A DNA stretch of 64,000 nucleotides from NCBI GenBank assembly GCA_963784935.1, contig CAWATD010000001.1, positions 189,411 to 253,410 of the forward strand, in the 5' to 3' direction. Source of the stretch: an uncultured Acidobacteriota bacterium. Its GTDB lineage: Bacteria; Acidobacteriota; Thermoanaerobaculia; UBA5066; Gp7-AA6. This document shows, in pieces, positions 28,699 through 47,263 of this stretch. Both the position numbers and the translations under genes were made by a program. The notes below the pieces were generated by a model that saw only the letters and a list, made by a program, of their open reading frames with translations, searched no databases and was not told where the DNA came from. The stretch's first letter is position 1; each line of letters begins with the position of its first letter.

Positions 28699-28775
28699 GG
28701 CGGTGTAGCTCAGCTGGTCAGAGCACGCGGCTCATATCCGCTAGGTCCGGGGTTCAAATCCCTGCACCGCCACCA
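28699..28775 (+). tRNA. tRNA with CAT anticodon (elongator Met or lysidine-modified Ile2), CCA encoded
   Basis: GGCGGTGTAGCTCAGCTGGTCAGAGCACGCGGCTCATATCCGCTAGGTCCGGGGTTCAAATCCCTGCACCGCCACCA. The G1-C72 pair excludes an initiator. One C-T mispair sits at the top of the anticodon stem. Confidence 0.9.
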
Positions 28776-28855
28776 AACTTCGCCAACCGTGGAGGCCTTT
28801 CGTGGCCGACTGTCTGCGCCAGACCCCCCGACTGTCTGCGCCGCGCTCTTCGAAC
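28750..28855 (+). repeat. repeat copy A: tRNA(CAT) 3' end plus conserved downstream flank
   Basis: Reference copy. It contains an internal direct repeat CGACTGTCTGCG x2. Confidence 0.9.
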
Positions 28856-28868
28856 AACCTGGGTGCCG

Positions 28869-30026
28869 TCACCGCTGGACGACGCGAGGAGTCTGCGGCG
28901 GCCTCTGCGCCGGGACCAGGATCCGGCTATGCGGATCAGACTCTTCGAGGGCGATCGAATCGATGCTGACATCGCCGCTGCTTTGAATCGGAGTCAGCCT
29001 GAGCTGCCGCAGCGTACCCTTCCATCCGGCATTACCGGCGAGATCGAAGTAGTAGTCCACGTATTCCGGAGAGCTCATCACGGCGTCTACGGTGACGCTC
29101 TTCGATTCGCTGAAGGCCGGATCAGCCAGCGTCGCGAAGGAGACCTTCGCCGAGGTTGGCGCGCCGCTGTTTTTCATGCGAACTCGCAGGAACGAGAATC
29201 GCGGCACCGGGATGTTGAGGTTATCAGCCGACATGAGCATTGGGCTGCCCCCGGAGCTCGATATCTGGAGCTTGCCGTCGGTCACTGCGAAAGACGAGAT
29301 ATTGGCGAATGGCGACCACCCTTCGACGCCGCTCGCGAATTGCCAACCTTCCTTCCCGTGCGCTTCGAATTCGTAGATCCTGGCGCGCCCGTCGCCCGAC
29401 ACCGTGCCTTGAGTCACGAGCAGTCTGATGAAACGACCGCTTGCCACGACAGCGCGATCGGTCAATCGATCCGTGTTGCCCGTCACGGAGTCGGCCCCGG
29501 AGAACGCCAGGCCATCGTCGCTAACTTGGAGGGCAAAGTCACTTGCATTGAGATCATCGGACTCTCCGTTGATCCCGGCGTGCCGGACGACCCACCTGTC
29601 GATCTCGGAGGGTTGATCCAAGTCGACCGTAATCCAATTCGTCCCGGCGGTTGCCGAAGTCCACTTCGTGAACTCGGATCCGTCGACGGCGCCGGACGGG
29701 CCCTCGTCCTCGGACGCGGAGGAGCTCGCCGTGGGCGTCTTCCCAAGGGTCAGGCTTTTCTCGTTGTGGAAGCGGAAGACGCCGCCCGAAAGGTCCCGAT
29801 TCTCCGCGTTGGCCCAGCTCATCGTGCCGTAAACGTCGACGGAGCCGGTGAAGGAGGAAGTGCTAGCGAACGACGCCCGCCCCGAAGCGGCTCCAGCCGC
29901 GCCGACGAATCGGAGTTTGTCGCCGCCCTCGAAAACGTAGCCGGACTGAGACGACGGGTCCGAGTGGGACTTCCAGAAGGTCGAATCGGTGCAGCCCCCT
30001 CCGTCCGCGAGCATTCGCCAGCCCAT
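28869..30026 (-). CDS. F5/8 type C (discoidin) domain protein; probably the C-terminal part of the disrupted gene upstream
   Basis: AVDGSEFTKWTS...NWITVDLDQPSEIDRWVVRHA...FALQVSDDG...GRFIRLLV is a discoidin signature. No signal peptide or obvious RBS at the track start. Confidence 0.55.
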   Translation of the reverse strand: MGWRMLADGGGCTDSTFWKSHSDPSSQSGYVFEGGDKLRFVGAAGAASGRASFASTSSFTGSVDVYGTMSWANAENRDLSGGVFRFHNEKSLTLGKTPTASSSASEDEGPSGAVDGSEFTKWTSATAGTNWITVDLDQPSEIDRWVVRHAGINGESDDLNASDFALQVSDDGLAFSGADSVTGNTDRLTDRAVVASGRFIRLLVTQGTVSGDGRARIYEFEAHGKEGWQFASGVEGWSPFANISSFAVTDGKLQISSSGGSPMLMSADNLNIPVPRFSFLRVRMKNSGAPTSAKVSFATLADPAFSESKSVTVDAVMSSPEYVDYYFDLAGNAGWKGTLRQLRLTPIQSSGDVSIDSIALEESDPHSRILVPAQRPPQTPRVVQR

Positions 30027-30033
30027 CTTGAGC

Positions 30034-32324
30034 TCAAAGGAATCCAGACCGAAGGTGCACTCTCATCGAGACAGCGTACCGAAAGCAAAAGGCAACTGGC
30101 GTTCTGGCGTGTGTAAGCGGCGACGAGTCCGATCCATATGCCTGGTCCGTCCAGACGCAGAAACTGCTTGAAACGGGCCCAGGTCGACCATCACCCTTTC
30201 TAGCCGGCCATGCTGTGAGCCGCCGCCTACGAGAATCCCGGTGTTGAGGACGGCTCGCCTCGACACCGGAGACCAAATGGTCGTCGCACCGGAAGCTCGA
30301 GAGATCGATCAGGTTGTAGGCGGTTGACGACCAGATGTTCTCGACCCAGACCCCGTCCCCGGTTCCTCGAACCGTGAAGGGATACGGCAAGGACAGGAGC
30401 GGAGACTGACCCGTAGCCTTGCTCGGGATAGACGACGTCGAATCCACGTATTCCCGAGCGAGGTGAAAGCGTCAGCAAGGCAGGATCGGAGGCGGGGGCC
30501 GTGCGTGTTCTTGCCATCGTAGCCGAGGAGTGACACAGGTCCGCGAACCCCCCGGCACTCCCGTCGTGATGGCTGAAACCGCCGAGCGGGCCTCGCAGCT
30601 CGACGCCGGTGGGAATCGTCAGCTGCGTCACGCGGTACTCGGCCCGGGGGAAGATAGACCGTGCCTCCGCCCTGGCCTCCGATCGCGTCGAGGGCCTGCC
30701 TGGATCGCCGCCGTGTCGTCGGCAAGGCCGTCGCCCGCTGCGTTGAAGGGTTGGGCCTTGACGCTCGCGAAGTTCGTCGCGTTCGAGGGGCTGCGGAATC
30801 CCGACGAAGCGCGTAGCTCCAGACTCTCGGTCCCGGGCACGTTGTCCGTATCGACGAAATGCAGATCTGGCTGGCGGTAGCTGTCGACTTCTTCGATCCT
30901 GGCCGTCGATTGCGGACGACGAGTCCGTAGAACGACAACTGGATCTTCAGGCAGCTTCTTGATCAGCACGTCCCGATGCGCATCGCGGACGCGAATGCCG
31001 TGGACGGCGAGCCCGTCGCACCAGCCAAGCTGAACTCCCGTTACGTGGCTCGACGTATATGTGTCGAGCGCGAGGCGATCTTCGTCGTTCGAGGGCGCGT
31101 TGGATCAATGATAGAGCGAGGGGCTGACTTCCAAGTGTCGTTGCCGAAGTTCACACTGGACATCCACGAGAACTCGTCCAACGTTCCCGACCGTGAGGCC
31201 CTGATGCAGAACGGTCCCTGCGATGTCGGCCAGGCCTGGTTATTGCTGGCGGACTAGCGATCCCGTCGTAAGAGTCGTACAGACGAAGGTTGAGGGCGTT
31301 GGCGCCTTCGTCTGTCGAGCGAGACAGTGGCGGGATATGGTTGGACCGTGTCGTTCGTGAATCCCTGAGACGGGTACCAGATGCTGAGGTCCCGGACGCA
31401 GGCCATGAGCGCCGAGCGATATGAATGGGGCAGACGTCTCGTCCCCCTGCCCGAAGGAGGCAAGAAGCAACGTGCCGATTCGATTTGGGTCGCTGCGATC
31501 CGTCAGGTCCGCGCCTCGAAGCGTGGTGCTTTCAGGGACGGACAAGCGTTCCGTCGATCCGGTAGCTGCCGGTGGGCGCGAACACGGTGCCGCCGCCGTA
31601 GGTCCGCGAAACGGCGGCCAGCGCGGCGGCTGAAGGCCTGCGTCGAGTCCCGCATCCCCGTGGGGTCAGCCAGAAATGGCGGGTCGGTGACGACGGCGTC
31701 CGCGACGACGACCTCGGCGCTCGGGCCCTCGAGAGGCACGATACGCGACTTGAGAGCCGGCGGAGCGACGGTCGGGCTGATCTCGACTCGGTCGAGAGCG
31801 ATAGATCCACTCCGAATGAGGACCCCCAACGTGTGGCGGCCCGCGCCCAGGTAGAGACCGGAGGACCAGACGTCTGCGAAGCCGTCCTGGACGGGCACGC
31901 CTTGAGAAGTGTCCCCGAGCGGCCGATCGTCGATGAGCGTTACGAGACCGACCGAAAAACCTGGAGCGATCGTGCGGGCGAAATAGTCGACCTTGTACCA
32001 GCCCGCTTGACCCACTTCGACGGTGTACTTCAGCCAATCGCTGATGATGCCGCCCTCAAGCGAACTGATTACATATGAGCCGCCGGGGCCAATGGCGATG
32101 TCCACGTCCGTATCGGGTCGGTAGCCGCTATAGCCGCCCTGATTGCCCGGTGTCGCCGCGTAGTGGGCGACGAGCGGGCCGCCGTCGTTGAAGTCGACCG
32201 CGCGAATGGTGCCGGGGACGTTATGAGGACCGTTGTGCGCGGTGCCGTCGTCGGCAGTCGCAGCCGCAAGGCCGGCCAACCAGAGAAGGATCAAACCGGC
32301 GCCAATAGTGGCGCGTCTCATCAT
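30034..32324 (-). pseudogene. frame-disrupted locus: signal peptide + CBM6-like module + two pectate-lyase-superfamily (beta-helix) segments
   Basis: MMRRATIGAGLILLWLAGLAAA then GTIRAVDFNDGG...WLKYTVEVGQAGWYKV (CBM6-like). Then FSAALAAVSRTYGGGTVFAPTGSYRIDGTL, and later NAAGDGLADDTAAIQA / ALDAIGGQGGGTVYLPPGR / VTQLTIPTGVELRG / PYPFTVRGTGDGVWVENIWSSTAYNLIDL. These pieces lie in different frames, giving at least six frame changes by hand translation. Confidence 0.55.
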
Positions 32325-32794
32325 CAGCTGTTGATCGGCCCACCGGCCAGCAGGTCGGACCGCCGAGACACCCTTGCGCACGGGACCAACGCTTTCTACC
32401 GAACCGGCGGCGGGCAGCTCAGTTTCTTGCTGGATTCGGTCCGTCGGAGGGGATCGGATTGCTAAGCCTACCATCCGCCCGGGCCTCCGATTGGTCGCCA
32501 CCCGCCAAATTGGCTTCCGAACGCGGCTCACGAAAGTGTTCTCGCAGAGCAGGGTCTCGTGATTCAAGGGAGAATGTGGCTCAAGATTTCGCCGGCACGT
32601 CGAATCTTCGAAGGGGGGAGGCTCGCCGCCCACGGCCCTGCTCTGAAGGCCTGGCAACTTTCTGCGATTCTTTCTGCGAACTGTCCGGCGATGTCCGGCG
32701 GTTAAGGGGTCAGCGGAAAAGGAAAGGGCTCTGGAAACCCAAGTTTCCCAGCGCCTTAGTGCCGGACAGTGACGGGCAGTGACTAATCTTTCGC

Positions 32795-33144
32795 GGGTTC
32801 AAATCCCTGCACCGCCACCAAACTTCGCCAACCGTGGAGGCCTTTCGTGGCCGACTGTCTGCGCCAGACCCCCCGACTGTCTGCGGCGCGCTTCTGGAAC
32901 ATCGCGCTTACTGATCGCCGCGCGATGTCGGTCGAGAATCACTTCGCGCCGGCGACGAGCTTCTGGAACCTTTGATTCTGAGCCATCCGGGAGAGAGGTA
33001 GTACGGGATCTTCAGTAGCGGCTCGAGCTGGTCGAGCGCCTTCTCCGACTCGCCTACCAGTATGTAGATCCGCACGAGCTGATGCTGGTAGCAGGGGCCT
33101 ACTGTCGCGTCCTTCGGAATGAGATCCAGGGCGACCCCTCGCAT
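32795..33144 (+). repeat. repeat copy B: tRNA 3' end (26 nt) + flank + 5'-truncated minus-strand gene tail
   Basis: 32795-32885 is identical to 28750-28840 (91 nt, hand alignment). It continues into the remnant ...LVRIYILVGESEKALDQLEPLLKIPYYLSPGWLRI (track ORF 32908..33144). Confidence 0.85.
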
Positions 33145-33172
33145 ACTCCAGTGGCTAAGGGGGGTCCAGGAC

Positions 33173-33373
33173 CTACCCCCGGCTGCCCCGGAGGACAGTG
33201 GGCGTCTGTCGGCCGGCGGCCGGCGGCCGGGTGCCTTGCTCGAAGGATCCCGACTCTGGATTGAAAGGCACCCTGCACCGGGCGCAGAGCCTGGGGCGGC
33301 GCTTGTCGCTAGCGACGAGGGTCGTAGCCGAGCAGGCGCGGCACGGAATCACAACGTAGCGCGGGTTCTCCAT
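33173..33373 (-). CDS. small zinc-ribbon-like protein
   Basis: MENPRYVVIPCRACSATTLVASDKRRPRLCARCRVPF..., with GGAGG 5 nt upstream of the ATG at 33373. 66 aa. Confidence 0.4.
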   Translation of the reverse strand: MENPRYVVIPCRACSATTLVASDKRRPRLCARCRVPFNPESGSFEQGTRPPAAGRQTPTVLRGSRG

Positions 33374-33649
33374 GGCCGCCTCCAAGACACATGCTACCGC
33401 CAGGCAGCCCCTTCGCGCGGGCCCGCTCAAGGTTCGCGTCGAGCAGGTTCCCGACCGTGACCGCCGCCATGCTCGGCGTGACGAGCGCCTCCTTGCCCTC
33501 GGCCGCGTTCGAGCAACGCGCGGGAAGCCGCGCGGCGCGTCAAGCCGCTCTGGACGGCCGCCGTCTTCACCGCCGGCCCGATAGCAGCGGCGCTCAACAA
33601 CCGTCGGGGCGTTGACGGCCTCGAAGCCAGCGCGTACTATCGCCCAGTC

Positions 33650-34642
33650 TTGAGGCTAGGAAGAGCTTCCAGGTCGCTGGCGGTTTGGGCTGCAACGTCT
33701 CTATGCCTCTTCATGCTCGCGGGATCGCTTCCGGCGGGCATCCCAACGAGCGCCGACCTCTCGGTCACGAAGACCTGTAGCAACTGCCCGGAGCCGGCCG
33801 GAGCCAGCATCTCCTACATCGTGAGCCTCACCAACGGAGGACCGGACGACGCTCAGAATGTCACGTTGACCGATGCCGTTCCGACGAACACCACTTTCGT
33901 ATCCGCGATGCAGACCAACGGCCCGGCCTTCACTCTGAGCACCCCTCCGGTTGGCGGCACCGGAACCATCACCGGCACCCTCGTGACGCTCGCGGCCGGA
34001 GCCTCCGCTACCTTCCAGTTCACGATCAACGTCAACGCCAGCTTCACCGGCACGACCATCACCAACACGGCCACCGCCGCATCGACGACTCCCGACCCTA
34101 ACCTCGGCAACAATTCCGCCACTGTCACGAGCACCGGCGGCGTTGTCGCCCAGCTCTCCGTCACGAAGACGGATGGTGTTTCCACCGTGACGGCGGGGGC
34201 AAACACAACCTACGCCGTCCTCCTGACCAACAATGGACCGAGCGACGCGCAGAACGTCACTCTGACCGATCCCGTCCCCGCCAACACTGCGTTTGTATCC
34301 GCGATGCAGACCAACGGCCCGGCCTTCACTCTGAGCACCCCTCCGGTTGGCGGCACCGGAACCATCACCGGCACCCTAGCGACGCTCGCGGCCGGAGCCT
34401 CCGCTACCTTCCAGTTCACGATCAACGTCAACGCAAGCACACTCAACGGCACGACCATCACCAATACGGCCACCGCCGCATCGACGACTTTTGACATCAA
34501 CCCCGCCGACAACTCCGCCACGGACACGGACACGGTAGGTCCACCCCCCGGTGCAACCGTGCCGATGCTCTCGGAGCCGGGGGTTGCGCTGCTCGGCCTC
34601 GGGCTCGCCCTGGCGGCTCTGGCCGTGCTGCGCCAGCGCTAG
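33650..34642 (+). CDS. DUF11-repeat surface protein with PEP-CTERM-type C-terminal sorting signal
   Basis: Signal peptide followed by two DUF11-like repeats (LSVTKT...NGGPDDAQNVTLTD...). The C-terminus LSEPGVALLGLGLALAALAVLRQR is PEP-CTERM-like. TTG start from the track. Confidence 0.75.
   Translation: MRLGRASRSLAVWAATSLCLFMLAGSLPAGIPTSADLSVTKTCSNCPEPAGASISYIVSLTNGGPDDAQNVTLTDAVPTNTTFVSAMQTNGPAFTLSTPPVGGTGTITGTLVTLAAGASATFQFTINVNASFTGTTITNTATAASTTPDPNLGNNSATVTSTGGVVAQLSVTKTDGVSTVTAGANTTYAVLLTNNGPSDAQNVTLTDPVPANTAFVSAMQTNGPAFTLSTPPVGGTGTITGTLATLAAGASATFQFTINVNASTLNGTTITNTATAASTTFDINPADNSATDTDTVGPPPGATVPMLSEPGVALLGLGLALAALAVLRQR
33846..34438 (+). repeat. in-frame tandem duplication, period 396 bp, inside the DUF11 gene
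   Basis: Cores starting at 33899 and 34295 share about 140 nt with only 2 mismatches (83 identical, then a 4-nt patch, then 53 identical). The first part of each unit is clearly more diverged. Confidence 0.85.
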
Positions 34643-34850
34643 CCGGGGTAGTCGCTGCTCGCCTTCGCGGCGACCCTGCCGCGCGATTTGTCAGCTGTAC
34701 GTCCGGGATCAGAGGCCGGTGCTCGGCTCCGGCCCAAAAGCTAGTGAGCCCGGTAACGCTTTTGTAACGGGCCTGCGCCCCCGACTGTCAGAATTCCTGT
34801 CAGTAATTCGCCCGCCGCTGCTCGCCTTCTAGCCCCTCGCGCGCGCCCGG

Positions 34851-34884
34851 CCGAAAAAGAAAGCGCCCGATTTCTCAGGCGCTT
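34851..34884 (-). terminator. putative intrinsic terminator (minus strand)
   Basis: The minus strand reads AAGCGCC-TGAGAAATCG-GGCGCTT followed by TCTTTTTC. That is a 7-bp GC-rich stem with a 10-nt loop. Confidence 0.45.
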
Positions 34885-34922
34885 GCGGCAGACAGCGGCG
34901 GGCGGCGGCTAAGCCGCCTTGC

Positions 34923-35135
34923 GTTCAAATCCCTGCACCGCCACCAAACTTCGCCAATCGTGGAGGCCTTTCGTGGCCGACTGTGTGCGCCAGACCCCCC
35001 GACTGTGCCGAACTTTCTGGGACATCGCGCTTACTGATCGGCGCACGATGTCCGTCGCAGATTACTTCGCGCCCGCGACGAGCTTCTGGAACCTCGGGTT
35101 ATTGCGCAGCGGTCGATGTTGGGGTCAATATTCAA
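34923..35135 (+). repeat. repeat copy C: tRNA 3' end (24 nt) + flank + decayed gene tail
   Basis: GTTCAAATCCCTGCACCGCCACCAAACTTCGCCAATCGTGGAGG..., with a few mismatches to A/B. The tail encodes WLNIDPNID(P)LRNNPRFQKLV with one missing base. Confidence 0.8.
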
Positions 35136-35569
35136 CCAGGCTCTTCTCCCAAACGTCGTGGATCTCGCCCACCATTTTTCGTAAGAAGCTCGCCCAATCA
35201 GGTTTACTTGCATGCGTACTCAATATTTCATCCACAGCTCGATCTGCGGTAGGATGATGGCAGGGGGCGGCGGCGCTCCTCGACCTCCGGCAGCGGTCGC
35301 GTGACCTCCGGCGGCGGTCGGGTTGCCTGCCGCCCCATCCTTCCGCCGCGACCCTCGTCGATGCACCCCCTGCCCGCCGTTCGCTCTGGCGAGCTCCAAA
35401 GCTCGCGCGGCAGGTCGACAGTATGTGAGAAGCCTGAACTCGAGGTGCGGGGCGACAGCCTCTTCGAGCCCGCAGGCGGACAAGAAGGTGCTCGAGTTTC
35501 TGTGATGACACGCACCCAGGGCACGCACCCTGACCCTCACGTCGTTGAGAGGCCTTGAAGAGGCACAGT

Positions 35570-35935
35570 TTCCAAATCCCTGCACCGCCACCAAACTTCG
35601 CCAACCGCAGAGGCCTTTCGTGGCCGACCGTCTGCGCCAGACCCCCCGACTGTCTGCGGCGCGCCTTTCGAAGTACTCGCTGCGCGATATCGGTCGAGAA
35701 TCATATTGAGCCAGCAACGAGCTTCTGGAACCTCGGGGACTTTCGCAGCGGGTCGAAGCTGGGGTCGATCTTGAGCCAGGCAGGAGACCAGAGGCCGGGG
35801 AGCTTCATGGACTCGCTCGACGTGATCGAGCGCCTTCTCCTGCTCGCCGACCGCGATGAAGATGCGCACGAGGTCCGCTTCTTGCCAATCTCCTGTCACC
35901 TGCCACTCATGTGCCGGGCGCAGCTCCATGGCCGA
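35570..35935 (+). repeat. repeat copy D: tRNA 3' end (about 22 nt) + flank + decayed gene tail
   Basis: CCAAATCCCTGCACCGCCACCAAACTTCGCCAACCGCAGAGG.... The tail encodes ...LVRIFIAVGEQEKALDHVERV... / ...LKIDPSFDPLRKSPRFQKLVAG in shifted frames. Confidence 0.8.
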
Positions 35936-35951
35936 GTCCACGTCCTGCGAT

Positions 35952-37268
35952 ATGCTTGCGCTCCCCATGAGAGCGCGGGCGCTGCTTGCGGCCTCACTGT
36001 TTCTTTGGGCGGCGGGATCCAGGGCTTCGACCGCTCCCCTCGTCGTCTTGGCACGCATCGACACCCCGATCCACCCGGCTTCGGCGAGCTACCTCGAGGG
36101 CGTGCTGGCCACGGCGGAAAAGGTAGGAGCGGCTCTCGTGGTCGTGACGCTCTCGACTCCGGGCGGCCTGCTGACGTCGACGCGGGACATGAGCTCCGCG
36201 ATCCTACTGAGCCGGGTGCCAGTCGCGACCTACGTGTCGCCCTCGGGTGCCCAGGCAGCATCAGCGGGCTTTCTCCTGTTGTTGTCGGGCGACGTCGCGG
36301 CGATGGCCCCGGGCACGAATACAGGCGCTGCTCATCCCGTTGGCGGAGAAGGCCAGGACCTCCCCAAGAAGCTGAACGAAAAGGCCGAGCAAGACGCTCG
36401 CGCCTTCGTCCGGACGCTCGCGTTGCAACACGGACGCAATGTCGAGAAGGCCGAGCTCGCGGTGTCGAAGAGCGCCTCGTACACGGAGGCGGAGGCGAAG
36501 GCCGACGGTCTCGTCGAGATCATCGCTCGTGACGTTCCGGACCTGCTCGCGCAGCTCGATGGGCGCCGGTTCACCCGCGTCGGGGGCGCTGAGACGACGC
36601 TTTCGGTGAAGGGGTACCGCCTCGAGACTCACGAGATGGGGCAGATGGACAGAATTCTGGGCGTCGTGTCCCATCCCAACGTCGCCTACCTTCTCTTTCT
36701 GCTCGGTCTGGTCGGCCTCTACTTCGAGCTCTCGACGCCGGGCGCAATTCTGCCGGGCGTCGTCGGCGTGATCTCGCTGCTCCTCGCTCTCTATGCCTTC
36801 TCGGTGCTTCCGGTGAACCTGGCCGGCGTGGCGCTCATTCTCTTTGCGATCCTGCTCTTTGTTGCGGAGATCAAGATCGCCAGCCACGGGCTGCTCTCGG
36901 TTGGCGGCGCGATCGCACTGATCGCGGGCTCGCTGCTGCTCTTTTCCGGCAAGGGAGATCGCGGCGGCTACAGGGTGGATCTCGGGATCATTCTCCCGGG
37001 CCTGGCCCTGACGCTCGCCGTCGTGGCCTTCCTGACCTGGAATACGGTACAGCGCCGAAAGGCGCCGGTTCGCACGGGGCTGTCCGCCATGGTCGGCCAG
37101 GAGGCTCGGGTCGCCGACGGCTTCGGGGCCGTCGCGACGAAGGGCCGCGTGCAGATTTTCGGCGAATACTGGGAAGCGGCCGGGCCGGCCGGAATCGCGC
37201 CCGGCGATATCGTTCGCATCCAAAGCATCGAGGGGCGCACGCTGCACGTCGAAAGGAGGAGTGGATGA
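35952..37268 (+). CDS. NfeD-family membrane-bound ClpP-class serine protease
   Basis: Start taken at [22 protein letters not shown] inside track ORF 35856..37268. Has the [12 protein letters not shown] and [11 protein letters not shown] motifs, central TM segments and a C-terminal OB-like domain. Overlaps the SPFH gene by 4 nt. Confidence 0.8.
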
Positions 37269-38026
37269 GAGAAGTTCTCTCGGTACCCGGCCTGCTCGTG
37301 GCGGTCTTTGTCGGTCTTCTCTTCCTCTTCAAGTGGATCAACGTCCTCAACGAATACGAGCGGGGAGTGACATTCTGGCTCGGCCGTCTCGGCAAGGCGC
37401 CCAAGGGCCCCGGTCTTGTCCTGATCTTCTGGCCGTTCGAACGCATGGTCAGGATGTCGCTCCGGACTGTGGTCCACGACGTCCCGGCCCAGGACATCAT
37501 CACCAGGGACAACGTTTCGGTGAAAGTCAACGCGGTCGTCTATTTCCGCGTGGTGGAGCCGGAGAAGGCGGTCGTGCAGGTCGAGAACTTTCTCTACGCA
37601 ACGTCGCAGCTCGCCCAAACGACGCTCCGGAGCGTCCTCGGGCAGGCGCTTCTCGACGAGCTCCTTTCCGAGCGGGAGAAGCTCAACCTCGACCTGCAGA
37701 AGATCATCGACGAGCACACGACGCCCTGGGGCATCAAGGTGTCCCTCGTCGAAGTCAAGCAGGTCGATCTGCCGCCCGAGATGCAGAGGGCGATGGCAAG
37801 GCAGGCGGAGGCGGAGCGTGAGAAGCGGGCGAAGATCATCCACGCCCGGGGCGAGCTGGAAGCCGCGACCGCGCTCTCCGAGGCGGCCGTGATCATCGAC
37901 CGCCAGCCGGCGACGCTCCAGCTGAGGTATCTCCAGACGCTGACCGAGATTGCGAACGAAAAGAACTCGACGATCGTCTTTCCGCTTCCGATCGATCTCA
38001 TCAAGATGTTCCTGCCGAAGGTTTAG
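37265..38026 (+). CDS. SPFH/band-7 (stomatin-like) protein
   Basis: 253 aa. Has N-terminal [32 protein letters not shown] and [12 protein letters not shown]. This is the classic NfeD-stomatin pair. Confidence 0.9.
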
Positions 38027-38097
38027 GCGGCAAGATGTCCATCCGAGGTTCATGCTGACCGCTTGACCCGACTCGACCTGACTCGTCCCGCCTCGAC

Positions 38098-38190
38098 GCT
38101 GCGCCAGACGCCCCGACTCTCTGCGGCGCGCTTCTGGAACCTCGGGCTCTTGCGCAGTGGGTCGAAGCTGGGGTCGATCTTGAGCCAGTC
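38098..38190 (+). repeat. repeat copy E: flank + gene-tail part only (no tRNA segment)
   Basis: CTGCGCCAGACGCCCCGACTCTCTGCGGCGCGCTTCTGGAACCTCGGG...GGGTCGAAGCTGGGGTCGATCTTGAGCCAG. It looks like a B/D-type unit lacking the 65-70 bp between the two internal CTTCTGGAAC direct repeats. Confidence 0.7.
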
Positions 38191-38229
38191 GGGCGAGTAC
38201 GCGGGTTTCGAGAGGACGCGTGCGAAGAT

Positions 38230-38254
38230 TGGTGCGCCGTGCGGGACTCGAACC
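38230..38254 (-). other. isolated 3'-terminal fragment of a different tRNA (T-loop, T-stem 3' half, acceptor 3' strand, CCA)
   Basis: The minus strand reads GGTTCGAGTCCCGCACGGCGCACCA. Upstream sequence doesn't supply the T-stem 5' half or any D/anticodon arm. Confidence 0.45.
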
Positions 38255-38361
38255 TTCAGGAAGCTCTCAACAGGCCCACGAGTTGGGACCACGTGTCCGA
38301 GTCTTGTGCACGGTCCCACATTTGTGGCATTCGAAACCGGGCTGTACCCAGTGGAATGGCG

Positions 38362-38991
38362 TCAGGTCAGCTTGCCGCGCAGAAGATCTTTCGAACCTCG
38401 CCCGAATCGTCGGATAACTGCCACGGCCTGATGAATGGAAAGGTCGACCCGGCGCACCCGGTCGGCCGGCAGATAGAAGATGGACCCCGACGATGGGCTG
38501 GGTGCCCCGGGCACGTACACGGTCTGCTGGCCGTCGTCGTGCGTCTCGACGAGAAACGCGAGCTGCCATGCGTCTTCAATGCGTGCGAGCACGACGGCGA
38601 GCTCTTCCTCGTTCTCCATCCCCGTCGAGCCCGTGAGCATGCTCTTCAGCACGACGTAGCCCGGAACCTTGCCGAGGATCCTCCACTCCATTTCCTCCCG
38701 GAGTCGGCGCCCGATCGAGGTCCGCACGGCCAACCCCAGGAGGAATGAGACAACGACGATCAGGACCACCGCCGCGATGGTCGTCACGGTCAGGCCGAGG
38801 ACGTGGTGGACCGGGAACCGCTGCGCCACGGGTTCGGCAACCTTTTCGGCGATATCCAGGCCTTGCCGGAGCACCATGAGCAAAAGGATGAGCGGAACCA
38901 TGAAGAGGATCCCGCCCACGAGTGTGGCCTTGAGGAAACGGGTGATGATCCTGGGGGAGCGGGTCTCCCGCAGCGGGTTTGTCGGAGTCAT
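38362..38991 (-). CDS. DUF502-domain membrane protein
   Basis: 209 aa with two TM segments. Has GKVPGYVVLKSM and a SGSIFYLPADRV signature. Confidence 0.8.
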   Translation of the reverse strand: MTPTNPLRETRSPRIITRFLKATLVGGILFMVPLILLLMVLRQGLDIAEKVAEPVAQRFPVHHVLGLTVTTIAAVVLIVVVSFLLGLAVRTSIGRRLREEMEWRILGKVPGYVVLKSMLTGSTGMENEEELAVVLARIEDAWQLAFLVETHDDGQQTVYVPGAPSPSSGSIFYLPADRVRRVDLSIHQAVAVIRRFGRGSKDLLRGKLT

Positions 38992-39300
38992 GAACGCCTC
39001 CCTTCACTCATGGATAGTCCCGGGCGCGGCGGCGATCGAGTGGCCGTCGACACCACAGTCTTCCACGTCTCCCCACGGCGGCAGTTCTTGATCCCTCGGC
39101 GGGGCGGGCCCGAGCGCGTCGAGAAATGTCTTGACGGCCGGCTGGACGACTTCTGGGTGACGCTCTGACCTGTGCAGAGGTCAGGGCACGTTGACGTCCA
39201 GCGAGGACGCCCCGTTCAACCTTTCGACTCGATGGAACTTCCGGCCGCCGGGGACGCTCACCGCGTGGCACCCTTCTTGCTCAACTAGAATGCGAAGGCT

Positions 39301-40190
39301 GTGTCCATGAACAGGTTTTTCAAGGTCGGCTGGAAGATTCAACCGCTGCTTCTGGCGGGCGCGCTAGCATTTGCTTCAGCCCCCGCGGCGCTCGGCCAAC
39401 ATTCGGGCGGAGGGTCCATGGCGGTGGGTCCCATGGCGGTGGGTCCCATGGCGGCGGGTCCCATGGCGGTGGCGGCTATCACGGCGGCGGCGGGTCCCAC
39501 GGCAGTGGCGGCTATCACGGCGGCGGTGGCGGGTCCCACGGCGGTGGCGGCTACCACGGCGGCGGCGGCGGGTCCCACGGCGGTGGCGGCTATCACGGCG
39601 GCGGTGGCCACGGTTACTACGGTGGCCGCGGTTACTACGGTGGCCACGGCTACCACGGTGGCCACGGTTACTACGGTGGCCATGGCTACTACGGTGGCGG
39701 CTACTACTACCCCGGTTGGGGCTGGGGTTTGGGCTGGGGCGCCGGTTGGGGAGACTGGGGTTGGGCCTGGCCCGGCTGGTGGGACGGTTACGGCTCGTCC
39801 GGCTACGTTTCGACGTACCCGTCCGTAGAGGTCCAGGTGGGCGAGGACCAGAGCGATTGGGTCCAGGACCCGAACCAGTCCTGGCGGGGCAGCGGACCCG
39901 GACAGCAACCGCCAGCCGGGGGCCAGCCTGCGCCCGAGCCGGGCGCCGGTACGGTGTCGAAAACGAGGGCCCGCATCGTCCTCCGGATTCAGCCGGGCGA
40001 CGCGGCCGTCTACTTGAACGACAGTTTCGTCGGGACTGGGGAAGAACTCTCGACCCTGGCCAGGGGCATGCAGGTCCCGCCGGGACAGCACACGGTCACG
40101 GTCTCGCGACCCGGTATGAAGACCGAGGAGCGCACGGTGGTTGTGGGACCCGGAAAGAGCGAGACCGTCGAAATCTCCCTGCAGCCGTAG
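39301..40190 (+). CDS. secreted Gly/His/Tyr/Trp-rich low-complexity protein with C-terminal PEGA domain; frame broken near 39417
   Basis: The signal peptide (MSMNRFFKVGWKIQPLLLAGALAFASAPAALG) is in frame 1. HGGGSHGGGSHGGGSHGGGGYHGGGG...GHGYYGGGYYYPGWGWGLGWGAGWGDWGWAWPGWWDGYG and the PEGA domain (ARIVLRIQPGDAAVYLNDSFVG...HTVTVSRPG) are in frame 0. The first repeat unit reads GGGTCCATGGC where later units read GGGTCCCATGGC. Confidence 0.65.
39405..39790 (+). repeat. coding short tandem repeats (GGTGGGTCCCATGGC- and GGCTACCACGGTGGCCAC-type units)
   Basis: Directly visible periodic GGN/CAY/TAY units. They encode the Gly/His/Tyr block. Confidence 0.8.
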
Positions 40191-40481
40191 GGGCGCGATC
40201 ACGGGTTGACCGGCACCGGCCTTGCGGAGCTGCCTGACCGCTTGGGTACCGACGACCGGCGGACTGTCGGCTCGATTCAGTCGAAGATACGAGAAGACGG
40301 TCTCATCATTGGCGCCGCGGCTCTTCATATGGACGGCCTCTCCCAGCGGGTCCTCCTCGGTCGACATCTACCTCGGCAAGGCGACCTGACCGAGGTACGC
40401 CTGAGCGTGATCAGGCGTCAGGGAGCGACCGCAGTTCCTCGGGTGGCGAGGGTGTAGCGTGAAGGGTGGAGGTCCAGTGCC

Positions 40482-40673
40482 ATGCCAACGGTCAAGTGCG
40501 AACGCTGCGGGAAGGCGATGACGCAGGCGCGCAATCTGACGGTGAAGCTTGCGGTGCTCCTGGGCGACGGGACAGACCCGGGCAAGGGCGAGGTTCGCCC
40601 CGATGCCTATGTGTGTACCAACTGCGGGCGGGTAGAGTTTCGCGTGCGCGAGCCAGGCCGATTCTCTGATTAG
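40482..40673 (+). CDS. small zinc-ribbon protein
   Basis: 63 aa. MPTVKCERCGKAM...YVCTNCGRVEF has two CxxC knuckles. GGTGGAGG lies 9 nt upstream. Confidence 0.5.
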   Translation: MPTVKCERCGKAMTQARNLTVKLAVLLGDGTDPGKGEVRPDAYVCTNCGRVEFRVREPGRFSD

Positions 40674-40713
40674 AGGCACGAGGGCCCCAACGATCCCTGT
40701 CGAGCCTCGGACT

Positions 40714-40760
40714 CACTTCCCGCCGGCGACGAGCTTCTGGAACCTGGGGTCGTTGCGCTG
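40714..40760 (+). repeat. repeat copy F: short fragment of the gene-tail module
   Basis: CACTTCCCGCCGGCGACGAGCTTCTGGAACCTGGGGTCGTTGCGC, compared with copy B CACTTCGCGCCGGCGACGAGCTTCTGGAACC. Confidence 0.5.
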
Positions 40761-40781
40761 CGATCGTCAGGTCCGTCGTGA

Positions 40782-42319: not shown

Positions 42320-42400
42320 CTCGACCCGCTGCGCAAGATCCCGAGGTTCCAGAAGCTCGTGGCAAGGTCGATCTTGAGCCATCCGGGCGAGAGGTAGCAG
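42320..42400. repeat. repeat copy G: gene-tail module with its distal about 45 bp inverted
   Basis: 42320-42364 reads LDPLRKIPRFQKLVA on the plus strand. The adjoining 42365-42400 encodes ...YLSPGWLKIDL on the minus strand. Confidence 0.5.
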
Positions 42401-42566: not shown

Positions 42567-45157
42567 TCAGCGCAACCCGTCGACGACGTATAGCTCGCCG
42601 AGGATCCGGCTGCCCCCGTACGCCCACACTCTGCCGTCGGGCGCCACGCGAACCTGGATTCCCTGGATGGTGGCGTCGAAGGGGATTTCCTTCCAGAGCC
42701 GCCGGCGGCCTGTCTCCATCTCGTACAACGAGACTCTGGCGGGCCTCTCTCCCCGCCGAAAGACGTAGAGATGGCGCGAATCCTGGCCCCACTGAACGAT
42801 CCGATCACCGGGCGGCGAGAGGTCCGGCAGGACCCGCGATTCGCCGGTTCCGTTCAGGGGGATGAGGAGCGCCTGGCCGCGGCGGATGCCGATCACGTAT
42901 TTTCCGTCCGGCGAAACCGGGCTGGTCAATTGCGCGAGCATCAGTCTCTCCGGCCCGATGGCCTGCGGCTTGCCTTCCGGGACCGCCTGGACATAGAGGC
43001 GTGAGTCTCCTCCCTTCCCCCGCGCGGAATACACGACGCTCCTGCCGTCCGGAAGCCACGCCCCCCAGTCGTACTCGGCAAACTCTCCTGCGAGCGTCCG
43101 CGCCTGTCCCGGGCCGGTCGGAAGGAGGAACAGCGTCTCCGCCTTCCCGGTAGAGGGCAGGCTCTGCGCAAGGACCCACCTGCCGTCGGGAGAAATCGCA
43201 AATCCCTCGCCGTCGCCGAGCTTGACGGCCGGCGACCCGTCCGTGCCCCGCAGATAAGCGACGGACAGTGATCCGCTGCCTTCTCCGGCTTCGTTCAGCA
43301 GAACGGTCCTGCCGTCGAAGGACAGGTCGGCAAGCCAGGAGTCGTCGAGCCAGGAGAGCTCGCGCCCCTCGGGTTCGGACGTCGAGGCGAACCGCACGAC
43401 TCGCGAGCTGCTGTGATGACCGAGCAGTACCCGCCCTTCCGGCGATACGTCGTCGAGCTCGAGACTGCCAGGCACGCGCATCAGGAGCCGCCGCTTGCCC
43501 GAGAGGTCCACGGCCCACAGCGCGGTCGGTTTGCCCGGTTGTTCCGGCGCCGTGAACCACACCTCGCGGCCGCTGGCGCTCCAGCACGGGACGCCGAACA
43601 CGGCGCTCCAGCCTTCCGAGAGAATCCGGTGCGCCCCTCCCTGCCGATCGACGACGGCGATCGCCCAGGCGCTGCCCTTCTCCTCCGAGAGGGCGACGGA
43701 CCGGCCGTCCCGCGACACGCGCAGCGTATCGGCCCCCCGGGGAACAAGAACCTTTCCGACGGGATACTCGAGACGCGCTTGTCCCTCGACGACATGGACG
43801 ACGGCAAGGTCCTTTCCGTCGAGGGAAAAGTCGGCCCCCGCGTAGGCGACATCCTCGAGAACCTGCCGGGGGGTCCCTCCCGACATCGGGACCAGGGAGA
43901 GCGTCCCGGAGGGCTGCCCGACCGGAATGACGAGGATCGCCATCTCGTTCGATGGCGAGATCGCGAGGATGTCTCCCTCGAAATCGAACTTCGCGGATTC
44001 GGGGCTGCCGACCTGGGTTCGGTAGAGCCGCGTACCCGGCGGGTCGCCGATCCATCTCGCTCCGTACACGATCGTCCGGCCGTCCGGCGCAAAGCGGGCG
44101 TTGCCGATCGCGCCCTGTCGAAAGGTCAGCCGCGTGAAGCGGGGGGCCTCCGGCGCGGCGCTCAGGCGGCCTCGAGCGAACCAGCCGGCGCCCAGTGCCG
44201 CGGCGAGCAAGGCAACACCGGCGAGCAGCGCGGGGACACGCCGGCGCGGCCGCGCCGTCGTGGCGAGCAGGGCCCCTGAGCCGCTGGTGACTTCCGAGAT
44301 GTGGTCGCGCACGCTGGCGAGGTCCCGCGCCAGATCCCGCGTCGAGGCGTACCGCTCCTCGGGCTCCTTGGCCAGGCACCGGTCCAGCATCCACCGCACC
44401 GGCAGCGGCAGGTCGGGACGGAGCTTGGCAACCGCCTCCGGCTCCTCCCGGATGATCGCCGACATCGTCTCGGCGGCCGTCTTCCTCTGGAACGCCTTCT
44501 GCCCCGTCGCCATCTCGTAGACGATCGACCCCAGCGAAAACTGGTCCGACCGGAAATCGAGCGCCTCGCCCGAGGCCTGCTCCGGCGACATGTAGGCCAC
44601 CGTCCCCATCACCGTCCCGGGGTGCGTCTCCGGCTGGACCAGCGTCGGCATCGCCGACACCTCTCCCCGACTCCGGCTCCACCAGCTTCGCCAGGCCGAA
44701 GTCCAGGATCTTCACGAACCCGTCCTTCGACACCATCACGTTCTCGGGCTTCAGGTCCCGGTGCACGATGCCCAGCCGCGTGCGCTTTCGCCAGGCCCTC
44801 GGCGATCTGCGCGGACACGCTCAGAACCCTTCGCACGGGCAGCGGCCCCGAGGCCTCGAGCTCCCGCAGCGTCTTGCCGTCGACCAGCTCCATCGCGATG
44901 TAAGCCGACTCGCCCTCCCGCCCGATCTCGTAGACCGTCACGATGTTGGGATGGTTCAACGCCGAGGCCGCTCGCGCCTCCTGCTCGAAACGCAACAGCC
45001 TGTCCCGGTCCAGGGCTACCGCCTCCGGCAGTACCTTGAGGGCCACGTCGCGCCCCAGCCGCGCGTCCCGAGCCTTGTACACCTCACCCATCCCGCCCGC
45101 GCCGATCGGCGACAAGATCTCGTAAGGACCGAGACGGGTCCCGGCTGAAAGTGCCAT
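42567..45157 (-). CDS. Ser/Thr protein kinase - TM - TolB/WD40-like beta-propeller; two frame breaks in the kinase domain
   Basis: The gene is split across three track ORFs. Part 1 is [29 protein letters not shown]...AKAHAAG (ORF 44609..45157). Part 2 is (I)[25 protein letters not shown] (ORF 42805..44766). Part 3 is [29 protein letters not shown]... plus a 600-aa propeller (ORF 42567..44660). Breaks are at about 44770 and 44664. Confidence 0.75.
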
Positions 45158-45499
45158 CGGATGACCGCTGCGTCGATTCTATGTCGTGGGGAGCAGTCTG
45201 GGCGGGGCCGCCCGAAACCACGTGAGAGTCGCATCCGCTATCGGGAACGATACTCGTCGCGCTTGCGGACCGCTGCACGGTGCCGGTCGGCGCTCCTGAA
45301 ATGGTGGACAGGTCATGTCCGCGCCCGAGTCGTCAGCGTTGCCGCGGCCCTGTGACCCGGAGCAAGAGAGTCCTTCAGGAACTTGACGATTTCGGCAAGG
45401 GTCGGCGCCAACGACTAGCAACCGAGCGGCCTGACATCTTGGGAGAACTTTCTGCAGAGCCCGTCGTAACTCTTGTAGTCAATCGACAGGAGGGACGAC

Positions 45500-46964: not shown

Positions 46965-47236
46965 GAGCCTCCATTATACCTGTCCCTCGGTACAGGTAGG
47001 AAGGGGCCTGCCGGCTCAATCGGGTAAGGCATTTGGCGGCCCAGGGGGAGGCGATGGGCTGGCCGCCCCCGCGCGGATTCTCGAGAGCGCATCCCGGAAA
47101 CGGCGCGCGTGGAGGCTCCTGCTCAGTGAGGAGGCCTCGTTGACGGGTGGGCGGCCGGTCCTCACGCACCCGATCGGGTCGCCGGCATCCACACTTGCCC
47201 GGATTTCCGAAGGAATTCGAGGCTTTCACCCGCCTT

Positions 47237-47263
47237 CAAGTCCCTGCACCGCCGCCGACTTGA
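47237..47263 (+). repeat. repeat copy H: degenerate tRNA(CAT) 3'-end-like segment
   Basis: TTCAAGTCCCTGCACCGCCGCCGACTT compared with TTCAAATCCCTGCACCGCCACCAAACTT gives 3 mismatches and 1 gap by hand. No upstream tRNA body. Confidence 0.4.

What the first reader, a model, noticed from the sequence alone, without database searches (positions are those of the whole stretch)
28750..35935. Four same-orientation copies of the tRNA(CAT) 3' end plus its downstream flank, with no integrase in sight
Seen: the last 26 nt of the tRNA gene plus the following 65 nt (28750-28840) recur without mismatch at 32795-32885. Slightly diverged copies begin at 34923 and 35570. All four share the flank motif AACTTCGCCAACCGTGGAGGCCTTTCGTGGCCGACTGTCTGCGCCAGACCCCCCGACTGTCTGCG. 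In copies B-D homology runs on for a further 150-350 bp into a 5'-truncated minus-strand gene tail. Spacings are about 4.0, 2.1 and 0.65 kb. Established: direct repeats of a tRNA 3' end are the att scars of tyrosine-recombinase islands, and tandem arrays arise by serial insertion. Three things are unusual here. (a) I recognised no integrase, excisionase or transposase between 28.8 and 47.3 kb. (b) The repeat extends far past the tRNA into the chromosomal flank, which site-specific integration alone doesn't explain. (c) The 34.9-35.6 kb segment carries essentially no cargo. An alternative explanation is repeated unequal or homologous recombination of a tRNA-flank module.
Basis: partly seen in the sequence, partly recalled or inferred. 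Interest (0 to 1): 0.65.

Follow-up and report, generated by a model that had tools for sequence, protein, structure and literature searches.

The report
Decayed island array at a tRNA gene
The repeats are real, and they mark a graveyard of at least four mobile-DNA insertions stacked behind one tRNA gene; the long repeat is the integration arm plus the last codons of a lost integrase gene, so this is an ordinary, well-preserved genomic-island array and not a new mechanism.

Summary
The tRNA(CAT) 3' end recurs five times, not four: 28753, 32798, 34924, 35571 and a missed copy at 47235. A coreless partial module lies at 38099-38197.

A relative (L003) has the same tRNA about 160 nt from the peptidase S9 gene. 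The whole 28776-47257 stretch (18.5 kb) is therefore accessory DNA.

The "chromosomal flank" is not chromosome. It is the P' arm of an integrative-element family plus the last ~17 codons of its tyrosine integrase gene, which converges on the tRNA. In contig L086 the same flank runs straight into that integrase. The flank's two CTGTCTGCG repeats recur as a pair in the P arm left of copies B and C, as expected of arm-type integrase sites.

The further homology in B-D is the tail of a Ser/Thr-kinase-TPR cargo gene. A complete 3.6-kb unit with that gene occurs in L084.

No intact integrase exists in the window, but relics do (33405-33512, 45250-45357).

Best reading: tandem accretion of decayed, integrase-less (CIME-like) islands. 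It is a new member of a known kind and of modest interest. The assembly could not be checked with reads.

The parts
28699..28775 (+). Intact tRNA(CAT) gene. Its last 23 nt (28753-28775, TTCAAATCCCTGCACCGCCACCA: T-loop to CCA) form the common core, copy A.
   Evidence: ARAGORN; Rfam tRNA, 67 bits; the core is shared by all copies.
28776..28856 (+). Flank A. It is the P' arm: palindrome GGCCTTTCGTGGCC at 28794-28807 and two direct repeats CCGACTGTCTGCGCC at 28806-28820 and 28828-28842. It ends in a short relic of the integrase 3' end. Homology stops at about 28856.
   Evidence: In L086 the same sequence is continuous with an integrase gene.
28857..32649 (-). Cargo of unit 1. An F5/8 type C domain gene lies at 28869-30026. 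A degenerate CBM/pectate-lyase-like gene, broken into several ORFs, lies at about 30034-32657.
   Evidence: Pfam; ORF list; homology to an intact 622-aa gene of L084 at 73% DNA identity; GC3 of 0.73-0.78 against 0.89-0.93 in flanking core genes.
32650..32797 (+). P arm of family 1 (right end of unit 1). It has two direct repeats CTTTCTGCG at 32658-32666 and 32670-32678, followed by a second repeat pair.
   Evidence: Alignment A2 with window C-left, L001, L054 and L006; motif search.
32798..32938 (+). Copy B: core 32798-32820 (identity to A starts at 32795), P' flank 32821-32885, and a relic of the last integrase codons at 32886-32938.
32939..33142 (-). Tail B: stop codon plus about the last 77 codons of a Ser/Thr-kinase-TPR gene, 5'-truncated, with a small internal deletion.
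   Evidence: tblastn with the 853-aa L084 kinase-TPR protein: residues 777-832 and 841-853, 77% identity.
33405..33512 (-). Relic of the N-terminal part of a tyrosine integrase (...EGKEALVTP..VTVGNLLDANLERARAKGL).
   Evidence: tblastn with P0014, residues 69-104: 67% identity, E 1.6e-8; translation.
33650..34642 (+). Cargo of unit 2: a DUF11-repeat surface protein gene.
   Evidence: Pfam DUF11, E 9.5e-44.
34776..34923 (+). P arm of family 1, degenerate (right end of unit 2).
   Evidence: Alignment A2; blastn to L006 and L054.
34924..35141 (+). Copy C: core 34924-34946, flank to about 35010, integrase relic, then kinase-TPR tail C (stop at 35062-35064, about 25 codons) on the minus strand.
35471..35570 (+). 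P arm of family 4 (right end of the near-empty unit 3). It has its own repeat pair, GACACGCACCC-like.
   Evidence: Homology to two P arms in L084.
35571..35947 (+). Copy D: core 35571-35593 (identity from 35573), flank 35594-35658, integrase relic to 35700, then kinase-TPR tail D (stop at 35701-35703, about 80 codons, frameshifted) on the minus strand.
35856..38026 (+). Cargo of unit 4: the NfeD and SPFH/band-7 gene pair.
   Evidence: Pfam. These genes are absent from the 10 kb behind the tRNA in all 78 related loci.
38099..38197 (+). Coreless partial module: the second arm repeat joined to the kinase-TPR tail. The 66 nt between two GCTTCTGGAAC repeats is missing.
   Evidence: Self-blast and sequence.
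42567..45157 (-). Ser/Thr kinase gene with PD40 repeats, split into two ORFs. Tail scraps of the TPR type lie nearby at 40710-40766 and 42314-42405.
   Evidence: Pfam.
45250..45357 (-). Relic of an integrase C-terminus (...ADRHRAAVRKRDEY), fused to the upstream region of the kinase gene.
   Evidence: tblastn with P0008 (E 1e-4) and P0005 (E 1e-3); translation.
47185..47257 (+). Copy E, the right end of the array: P arm of family 2 (47185-47234) and core 47235-47257 (20 of 23 nt). The chromosomal peptidase S9 gene follows 18 nt later.
   Evidence: Sequence; 89-92% identity to the P arms of L002 and L044; S9 follows the tRNA directly in L003.

Best explanation
The stretch 28776-47257 is a tandem array of at least four decayed integrative elements. 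They were inserted one after another by tyrosine integrases into the T-loop-to-CCA core of one tRNA(CAT) gene in a Thermoanaerobaculia (Acidobacteriota) chromosome.

Each insertion rebuilt the tRNA and left a 23-nt partial copy at the element's far end.

The long repeat arises because at least three units begin with the same left end of one element family. That left end consists of:
- a P' arm with two arm-type integrase sites (CTGTCTGCG, 22 nt apart);
- the last ~17 codons of the element's own integrase gene, which reads towards the tRNA;
- behind an old deletion junction, the tail of a cargo Ser/Thr-kinase-TPR gene.

All integrase genes have since been destroyed. The units are now att-flanked, integrase-less remnants (CIME-like), fused and trimmed by later deletions.

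Shown here: the repeats, the shared core, the P-arm families, the integrase origin of the flank, the near-empty site in a relative, and the intact 3.6-kb unit elsewhere.

Inferred: the order of insertions, that the repeated 9-mers bind integrase, and that units arrived independently and did not arise by duplication in place.
For: 1. Five direct copies all start at TTCAAATCC in the T-loop.

2. L003 (CLC protein 92% identical) has tRNA, 160 nt, S9, then MacB. The window has 18.5 kb between the tRNA and S9. Nine of 78 related loci also carry a second tRNA 3' end downstream.

3. DNA to the left of the partial copies falls into families shared across species. Family 1: window B and C, L001, L054, L006. 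Family 2: window E, L002, L044. Family 4: window D and L084 twice. Each family has its own pair of direct repeats.

4. The flank is integrase DNA.
- L086 reads tRNA 3' end, window-type flank, then an integrase ORF (P0022, PF00589) ending ...QRYHVKNADRHRAAIRKRDEYFEKRGADSRGGRRRQ*, with its stop inside arm repeat 1.
- L008 shows the same arrangement with a variant flank.
- phmmer of the relic against 1.8 billion proteins returns integrase C-termini, including the 399-aa P0014 (E 3.6e-8; Pfam 41.5 bits).

5. The same 9-mer pair occurs in the P arm (32658, 32670) and the P' arm. Seven of the eight CTKTCWGCG hits in 64 kb lie in att arms. Both repeats change together between families (TGTCTGCG, TTTCTGCG, TGTCAGCG) at a constant 21-22 nt spacing.

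6. L084 holds a complete unit: core, flank, relic, full 853-aa kinase-TPR gene, family-4 P arm, core. Tails B, C and D match its last 77, 25 and 80 codons.

7. Tail B is 84-88% identical to tails in other species but about 77% identical to tail D.

8. Integrase relics lie inside the array.

9. GC3 is lower in the array than in flanking genes.
Against: - No intact integrase is present in the window, so nothing here shows current activity.
- Units 3 and 4 pair a window-type left end with P arms whose repeat motifs differ (families 4 and 2). They cannot be single intact elements and need extra deletions or fusions to be explained.
- A and B are 100% identical over 91 nt while C and D differ. This could reflect gene conversion or a homology-driven event and need not come from site-specific integration.
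- The partial module at 38099 has no core, so not every copy was made by the integrase.
- Binding of integrase to the 9-mers is untested.
- The assembly could not be verified with reads.
Confidence: 0.75

Rival explanations
1. A chromosomal module (tRNA 3' end, flank and kinase-TPR tail) was multiplied in place by unequal crossing-over or other homologous recombination, with unrelated DNA trapped between copies. No site-specific integration was involved.
For: Homology of 150-400 nt would suffice for RecA-type exchange. A and B are identical over 91 nt. The coreless copy at 38099-38197, a 66-nt deletion between GCTTCTGGAAC repeats, and an inverted pair of tail scraps at 42314-42405 all show that homology-driven rearrangement does happen here.
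Against: All five copies start at the same T-loop position. The DNA to the left of each is a P arm shared with other species and carries its own repeat pairs. Units differ in content. Tail B is closer to other species than to tail D. Copy E has no flank homology at all, yet has the same left boundary.
Confidence: 0.12
2. Assembly artefact: a repeat-induced mis-join or expansion in a metagenome-assembled genome created some of the units. Unit 1 is the prime suspect, since it is bounded by the identical 91-nt repeat.
For: All relatives recovered are metagenome-assembled genomes, so the source is probably one too. No run with usable coverage was found: one soil metagenome holds 5% of the sampled words. 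Several genes in the array are split into ORF fragments, which could be read errors.
Against: Copies C, D and E are diverged and have unique junctions, so they cannot be collapsed or expanded copies. Independent assemblies show the same kind of array (L001, L002, L017, L084). A 91-nt repeat is shorter than ordinary reads.
Confidence: 0.05
3. The flank is a generic dispersed small repeat (REP/MITE-like) or a structured RNA that merely happens to lie near the tRNA.
For: The 65-nt flank is 95-98% identical between species whose neighbouring CLC gene is 78-82% identical. It contains a short palindrome.
Against: All copies in 64 kb lie inside the array. In about 90 related loci the flank always follows a tRNA(CAT) 3' end. 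There is no Rfam match, and the fold is no better than shuffles (z 0.49). It is continuous with an integrase ORF.
Confidence: 0.03

Closest known systems
Tandem accretion of ICEs/IMEs with cis-mobilizable elements (CIMEs), e.g. ICESt1/ICESt3-related islands of Streptococcus thermophilus (Pavlovic 2004 and Bellanger 2011, as reviewed in PMC5704250)
   Same: Site-specific insertion at the 3' end of a gene. Resident elements decay to att-flanked units without integration genes. Further insertions give tandem arrays with internal att sites.
   Different: The phylum differs (Acidobacteriota), as does the target (a tRNA(CAT) T-loop). No live partner element is present. At least four P-arm families share one core. 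Mobilisation has not been shown.
Dehalococcoides ssrA genomic islands (McMurdie 2011, PMC3146451)
   Same: Multiple tandem islands lie behind one small-RNA gene, each bounded by a direct repeat of its 3' end with the insertion point in the T-loop. The integration module is on the reverse strand next to attL, and in one case the repeat is embedded in the integrase gene. Fifteen of those islands lack an integration module and are read as CIME-like.
   Different: That system uses a serine recombinase and tmRNA, with 20-bp repeats only. Here the system is a tyrosine integrase and a tRNA, and every unit has lost its integrase.
tRNA-targeting tyrosine-integrase islands as catalogued by Islander (PMC4383910; sublocation classes from Williams 2002, cited there)
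   Same: A 3' tRNA-gene fragment marks the far end of the island. The crossover lies in the T-stem/T-loop region, a class with 1836 of 3919 islands.
   Different: Islander requires an integrase gene in every island, and it found only 4 arrays of three or more. This array, with five att copies and no integrase, would be filtered out.
Lambda-type attP architecture with arm-type integrase sites on both arms (textbook knowledge, not tested here)
   Same: Pairs of the same short direct repeat lie on the P arm and the P' arm, tens of nucleotides from a small core.
   Different: Binding is not shown. The P' sites lie inside the last codons of the integrase gene itself.

Membership tests
tRNA-gene-targeted tyrosine-integrase genomic island | The insert is bounded by the intact tRNA gene and a direct repeat of its 3' part. 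| tested here: met
   Five copies of the 23-nt core in the same orientation.
tRNA-gene-targeted tyrosine-integrase genomic island | A tyrosine integrase gene lies inside the island next to an att site. | tested here: not met
   Pfam found no intact integrase in the window. Only relics remain: the last ~17 codons in each flank, plus 33405-33512 and 45250-45357. Intact or near-intact versions occur next to the same flank in L086 and L008, and as P0014.
tRNA-gene-targeted tyrosine-integrase genomic island | Related genomes have an unoccupied site. | tested here: met
   L003 has tRNA, 160 nt, S9, then MacB. Even that spacer keeps a scrap of the arm repeats.
tRNA-gene-targeted tyrosine-integrase genomic island | Excision to a circle and re-integration. 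| not testable with these tools
   No run with usable coverage was found.
Cis-mobilizable element (CIME) | attL and attR are retained while integration and transfer genes are lost. | tested here: met
   Units 1 and 2 keep a P' flank on the left and a family-1 P arm with the matching repeat motif on the right, and have no integrase. Units 3 and 4 are hybrids with non-matching arms.
Cis-mobilizable element (CIME) | Mobilised by the integrase of a related element. | not testable with these tools
   Only indirect hints exist: the flank is 95-98% conserved across species, and tails are closer between species than within the genome.
REP/MITE-like dispersed repeat | Many copies dispersed through the genome, independent of tRNA genes. 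| tested here: not met
   There are no copies outside the array in the 64-kb window. In related loci and metagenome hits the flank always follows a tRNA(CAT) 3' end. The whole source genome was not available.

The most novel reading that the evidence does not exclude
The 3.6-kb unit seen intact in L084 (core, P' arm, integrase relic, one Ser/Thr-kinase-TPR gene, P arm, core) may be a still-mobile, integrase-less gene cassette. An integrase encoded elsewhere would move it in trans. On this reading such cassettes shuttle kinase genes between Thermoanaerobaculia genomes and pile up behind tRNA(CAT), somewhat like integron cassettes. The near-tRNA-level conservation of the 65-nt arm would then reflect ongoing selection for mobility.
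Probability: 0.2. Interest if true: 0.5.

Novelty: new member of a known kind. Interest (0 to 1): 0.3.

Why it matters
It shows that a puzzling long tRNA-plus-flank repeat with "no integrase in sight" can be resolved by comparative reading. The flank is element DNA: att arm plus the integrase 3' end.

It documents a tRNA(CAT) integration hot spot used by at least four att-arm families in a poorly studied soil phylum.

It also gives a concrete candidate attP (family-1 P arm, 23-nt core, P' flank), a candidate arm-site motif (CTKTCWGCG), and a candidate integrase family (P0014/P0022) that could be tested.

Island finders that require an integrase gene would miss arrays like this one. The biology itself, accretion and decay of islands, is already established.

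Tried and rejected
- RNA element: Rfam at relaxed threshold found only the tRNA itself, and the flank folds no better than shuffles (z 0.49).
- Source genome: exact look-ups of three window proteins found nothing on record, so no whole-genome search for a cognate integrase or for dispersed copies was possible.
- Reads: one soil metagenome holds 5% of the sampled words. Its short contigs cannot validate any junction.
- Viral contigs: no hit to the flank pattern. The metagenome scan gave four hits, all relics next to the tRNA or inside arrays.
- A crude regular expression for integrase box II in six frames found nothing useful.
- First attempts to prove the integrase origin were weak. Pfam on the 91-aa relic gave 14.4 bits, although at the right end of the profile. 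BLASTP against the unrelated L045 integrase gave E 0.71. A word-indexed protein search returned only other relics. The case was settled by L008, the exhaustive phmmer search and L086.
- I considered that the integrase ORF reads on into the tRNA. The frame is not conserved between flank variants and the L086 stop lies in arm repeat 1, so I dropped the idea.
- I considered the flank to be ancestral chromosome, since it follows the tRNA in single-copy relatives. I rejected this once its continuity with an integrase gene was seen.
Full report
**The observation**

The window carries a tRNA with anticodon CAT at 28699-28775 on the plus strand. The stretch 28750-28840 is repeated without mismatch at 32795-32885. 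The identical run is exactly 91 nt and does not extend leftwards. The repeat finder reports a four-copy direct family at 28750, 32795, 34921 and 35568, 82-96% identical over 107 nt. Two sub-patterns each hit only these four places, against 0.00 and 0.09 expected by chance. Homology of copies B, C and D continues into a minus-strand gene tail.

It is also incomplete.
- A search for the last 23 nt of the tRNA with up to three mismatches finds a fifth copy at 47235-47257, 18 nt before the stop codon of a peptidase S9 gene.
- A partial module without the tRNA part lies at 38099-38197.
- Scraps of the gene tail lie at 40710-40766 and 42314-42405.

**Setting**

The window has 67% G+C. Flanking genes have GC3 of 0.87-0.93, while genes between 28.8 and 47.3 kb have 0.73-0.86.

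Upstream of the tRNA lie an EAL-domain gene and a CLC chloride-channel gene. A scan of one genome per species with the CLC protein returned 78 loci. Nearly all are Thermoanaerobaculia or Acidobacteriota metagenome-assembled genomes, and the closest is 93% identical in protein.

The CLC-tRNA arrangement is conserved in most of them, but what follows the tRNA differs from genome to genome. Nine loci carry a second copy of the tRNA 3' end 1-9 kb downstream. One of these islands (L045) has an intact tyrosine integrase (Pfam PF00589, 57.7 bits) and phage-like genes.

Locus L003 (CLC 92% identical) has the tRNA, about 160 nt, then the peptidase S9 gene and the MacB-type permease gene. In the window those two genes lie at 47276-49327 and 51147-53600. 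The whole 28776-47257 stretch, 18.5 kb, is therefore accessory DNA at an insertion hot spot, and copy E is its right end.

**Left boundaries**

All partial copies begin to match the tRNA at TTCAAATCC, the T-loop. B matches three bases earlier and D two bases later.

The DNA to the left of each copy is not random. It falls into families shared with other species.
- Family 1: window B and C, L001, L054, L006 (alignment A2).
- Family 2: window E, L002, L044, 89-92% identical over about 70 nt.
- Family 4: window D and two sites in L084.
- Family 3: L050 and L060 only.

Each family has its own pair of short direct repeats 50-140 nt from the core. Examples are GACACGCACCC in family 4 and CATTCACACG in family 2. 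A common 23-nt core, with element-specific arms on one side that recur across genomes, is the signature of site-specific integration. Chance duplication or unequal crossing-over would not place the boundary at the same base five times.

**What the flank is**

Read on the minus strand, the roughly 50 nt to the right of the two CTGTCTGCG repeats resembles the end of a tyrosine integrase. At the second copies in L001 and L002 the reading is ...ALRRTAIGALFDAG..AEVQHFSRHRTSPMVQRYHVKNADRHRAAIRKRDEFFEKR.

The first tests of this reading were weak: Pfam gave 14.4 bits at profile positions 121-169 of 172, and BLASTP to the unrelated L045 integrase gave E 0.71. Three later results settle it.

1. In L008 an open frame with ...LYDTKKTATGLLLDSGLSDAEAMDFSGHRTASMLHRYRTKTAKRHGASVRKRDEYLAK... 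runs from the contig end down to the tRNA.
2. An exhaustive phmmer search of the 62-aa relic P0001 against 1.8 billion proteins returned 16 hits, matched at or near the C-terminus in most. They include P0008 (76% identical, E 1.3e-17) and the full-length 399-aa P0014 (E 3.6e-8, match at residues 329-383), which passes Pfam's integrase threshold at 41.5 bits.
3. In contig L086 the tRNA 3' end and a window-type flank run straight into an integrase ORF (P0022, PF00589). It ends ...QRYHVKNADRHRAAIRKRDEYFEKRGADSRGGRRRQ*, and its stop codon lies inside the first repeat.

The "chromosomal flank" is thus the P' arm of an element family, together with the last codons of its integrase gene, which converges on the tRNA.

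**The 9-mer repeats**

The flank holds two copies of CTGTCTGCG, 22 nt apart. Variant flanks in other species hold two copies of TTTCTTTCTGCG, TTGTCAGCG or GACTGTCCGCA at the same offset and a spacing of 21-22 nt. The two copies thus change together. Nineteen of 75 sites have such a repeat of 9 nt or more, against 1% of shuffles.

The family-1 P arm carries the same motif as a second pair: CTTTCTGCG at 32658 and 32670 in the window, and TGTCAGCG in L054 and L006. Seven of the eight exact CTKTCWGCG matches in 64 kb lie in these arms, all on the plus strand.

I infer that these are arm-type integrase sites. On that reading, the family-1 P arm, the core and the flank make up the attP of one element family. 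Binding has not been tested.

**The gene tail**

Beyond a junction about 50 nt into the integrase relic, copies B, C and D continue with the stop codon and the last codons of a gene ending ...WL(R/K)IDPNFDPLRKNPRFQKLVAGAK*. The same junction follows the intact tRNA in L012, L013, L017, L080 and the first copy in L001. It therefore arose once.

Contig L084 shows what it belongs to. A complete 3.6-kb unit there consists of core, flank, integrase relic, a full 853-aa Ser/Thr-kinase-TPR gene, a family-4 P arm and the next core. Tails B, C and D match the last 77, 25 and 80 codons of that protein.

Tail B is 84-88% identical to tails in other species (L013, L019, L041) but only about 77% identical to tail D in the same genome. 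This favours separate acquisitions over duplication in place.

**Integrase relics inside the array**

tblastn with the integrases recovered above finds two further relics.
- 33405-33512 (minus) matches P0014 residues 69-104 at 67% identity (E 1.6e-8).
- 45250-45357 (minus) reads ...ADRHRAAVRKRDEY.

No intact integrase, excisionase or transposase domain was found among about 50 ORFs scanned across the window.

**Anatomy of the array**

- Unit 1 (28776-32820): a truncated flank, an F5/8-type-C gene, a broken CBM/pectate-lyase-like gene, and a family-1 P arm.
- Unit 2 (32821-34946): flank, relic, tail B, an integrase N-terminal relic, a DUF11 gene, and a degenerate family-1 P arm.
- Unit 3 (34947-35593): flank, relic, about 25 codons of tail, about 330 nt of unassigned DNA, and a family-4 P arm.
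- Unit 4 (35594-47257): flank, relic, tail D, NfeD-SPFH, the partial module at 38.1 kb, several unassigned ORFs, a split Ser/Thr kinase gene, an integrase relic, a DJ-1/YHS gene, and a family-2 P arm.

Units 3 and 4 combine a window-type left end with P arms of other families. They must be fusions left by deletions that removed internal att sites.

**Conservation of the flank**

The 65-nt flank is 95-98% identical between the window and L005, L017, L013 and L079. In the same comparisons the CLC gene is 78-82% identical and the CLC-tRNA spacer 61-73%. That fits horizontal spread or selection on the arm. It does not fit a neutral relic. This is the one feature that hints at continuing mobilisation.

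**Rivals**

- Unequal or homologous recombination of a chromosomal module does not explain the common T-loop boundary, the cross-species P arms, or copy E, which lacks the flank. Small homology-driven events are nonetheless visible: a 66-nt deletion between GCTTCTGGAAC repeats at 38.1 kb and an inverted pair of scraps at 42.3 kb.
- An assembly artefact cannot be excluded for unit 1, which is bounded by an identical 91-nt repeat. No run with usable coverage exists. However, the other copies are diverged and have unique junctions, and independent assemblies show similar arrays (L001, L002, L017, L084).
- A dispersed repeat or an RNA element is not supported.

**Comparison with what is known**

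Tandem accretion of integrative elements, and their decay to att-flanked units without integration genes (CIMEs), is established in streptococci. The Dehalococcoides ssrA islands are a close structural parallel. They form arrays bounded by repeats of the 3' end of a small-RNA gene, with a T-loop insertion point and a recombinase gene on the reverse strand next to attL. Fifteen of those islands lack an integration module.

Islander lists 1836 islands with T-stem-region sites. It found only four arrays of three or more, because it demands an integrase in each island. An array like this one would be invisible to it.

**Verdict**

This is a new member of a known kind. It is a clean example in a little-studied phylum, with a testable attP and arm-site motif, but it is not a new mechanism.

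Noticed in passing
L087:1739-10900: A related integrase (P0023, 61% identical to P0008; possibly split into 114-aa and 236-aa ORFs) sits at the end of a roughly 9-kb element with AAA_25 and SLFN_AlbA_2 genes. Next to it is a partial 3' end of a different tRNA (GGGTTCGAGTCCCAGACGGCCCACCA) that is co-directional with the integrase gene. Two TTTCTGCG-type repeats (CTCTTTCTGCG, TTTTTCTGCG) lie between the integrase stop and the core. This is the same integrase family with another tRNA target and the opposite geometry.
   Followed up: partly
window 28776-28840, and the same flank in L005, L013, L017 and L079: The 65 nt after the tRNA is 95-98% identical across species whose adjacent CLC gene is only 78-82% identical and whose upstream spacer is 61-73% identical. 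It is conserved almost like the tRNA itself.
   Followed up: partly
window 33751-34533: The DUF11 gene contains an internal tandem duplication of about 396 nt (82-83% identical copies). It ends in a hydrophobic, PEP-CTERM-like C-terminus.
   Followed up: no
window 42567-45157: The Ser/Thr kinase gene is split into two ORFs: the N-lobe at 44609-45157, and the rest plus PD40 repeats at 42567-44660. This is either a frameshift or a read error. Several other genes in the array are also fragmented.
   Followed up: no
window 42314-42405: Two scraps of the kinase-TPR tail lie head to head in inverted orientation just downstream of the kinase gene.
   Followed up: no
window 28699-28775: ARAGORN calls the gene tRNA-Met. 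By eye, its anticodon arm resembles the lysidine-type tRNA-Ile(CAU) as much as elongator Met. The identity was not tested.
   Followed up: no
L003 rc 3652-3811 (tRNA to S9 spacer): Even the 'empty' site keeps a scrap of the arm-repeat region (CTCGACTATGCGCGCCAGACCCCCCGGCTGTCTGCGG). This lineage was therefore once occupied and later cleaned out.
   Followed up: no
L054 rc 12417-13085 and L053 rc 2600-2760: Ser/Thr kinase genes or their N-terminal fragments ([15 protein letters not shown]...) abut the tRNA or the integrase relic directly in several relatives. Kinase genes appear to be the commonest cargo or neighbour at this hot spot.
   Followed up: no
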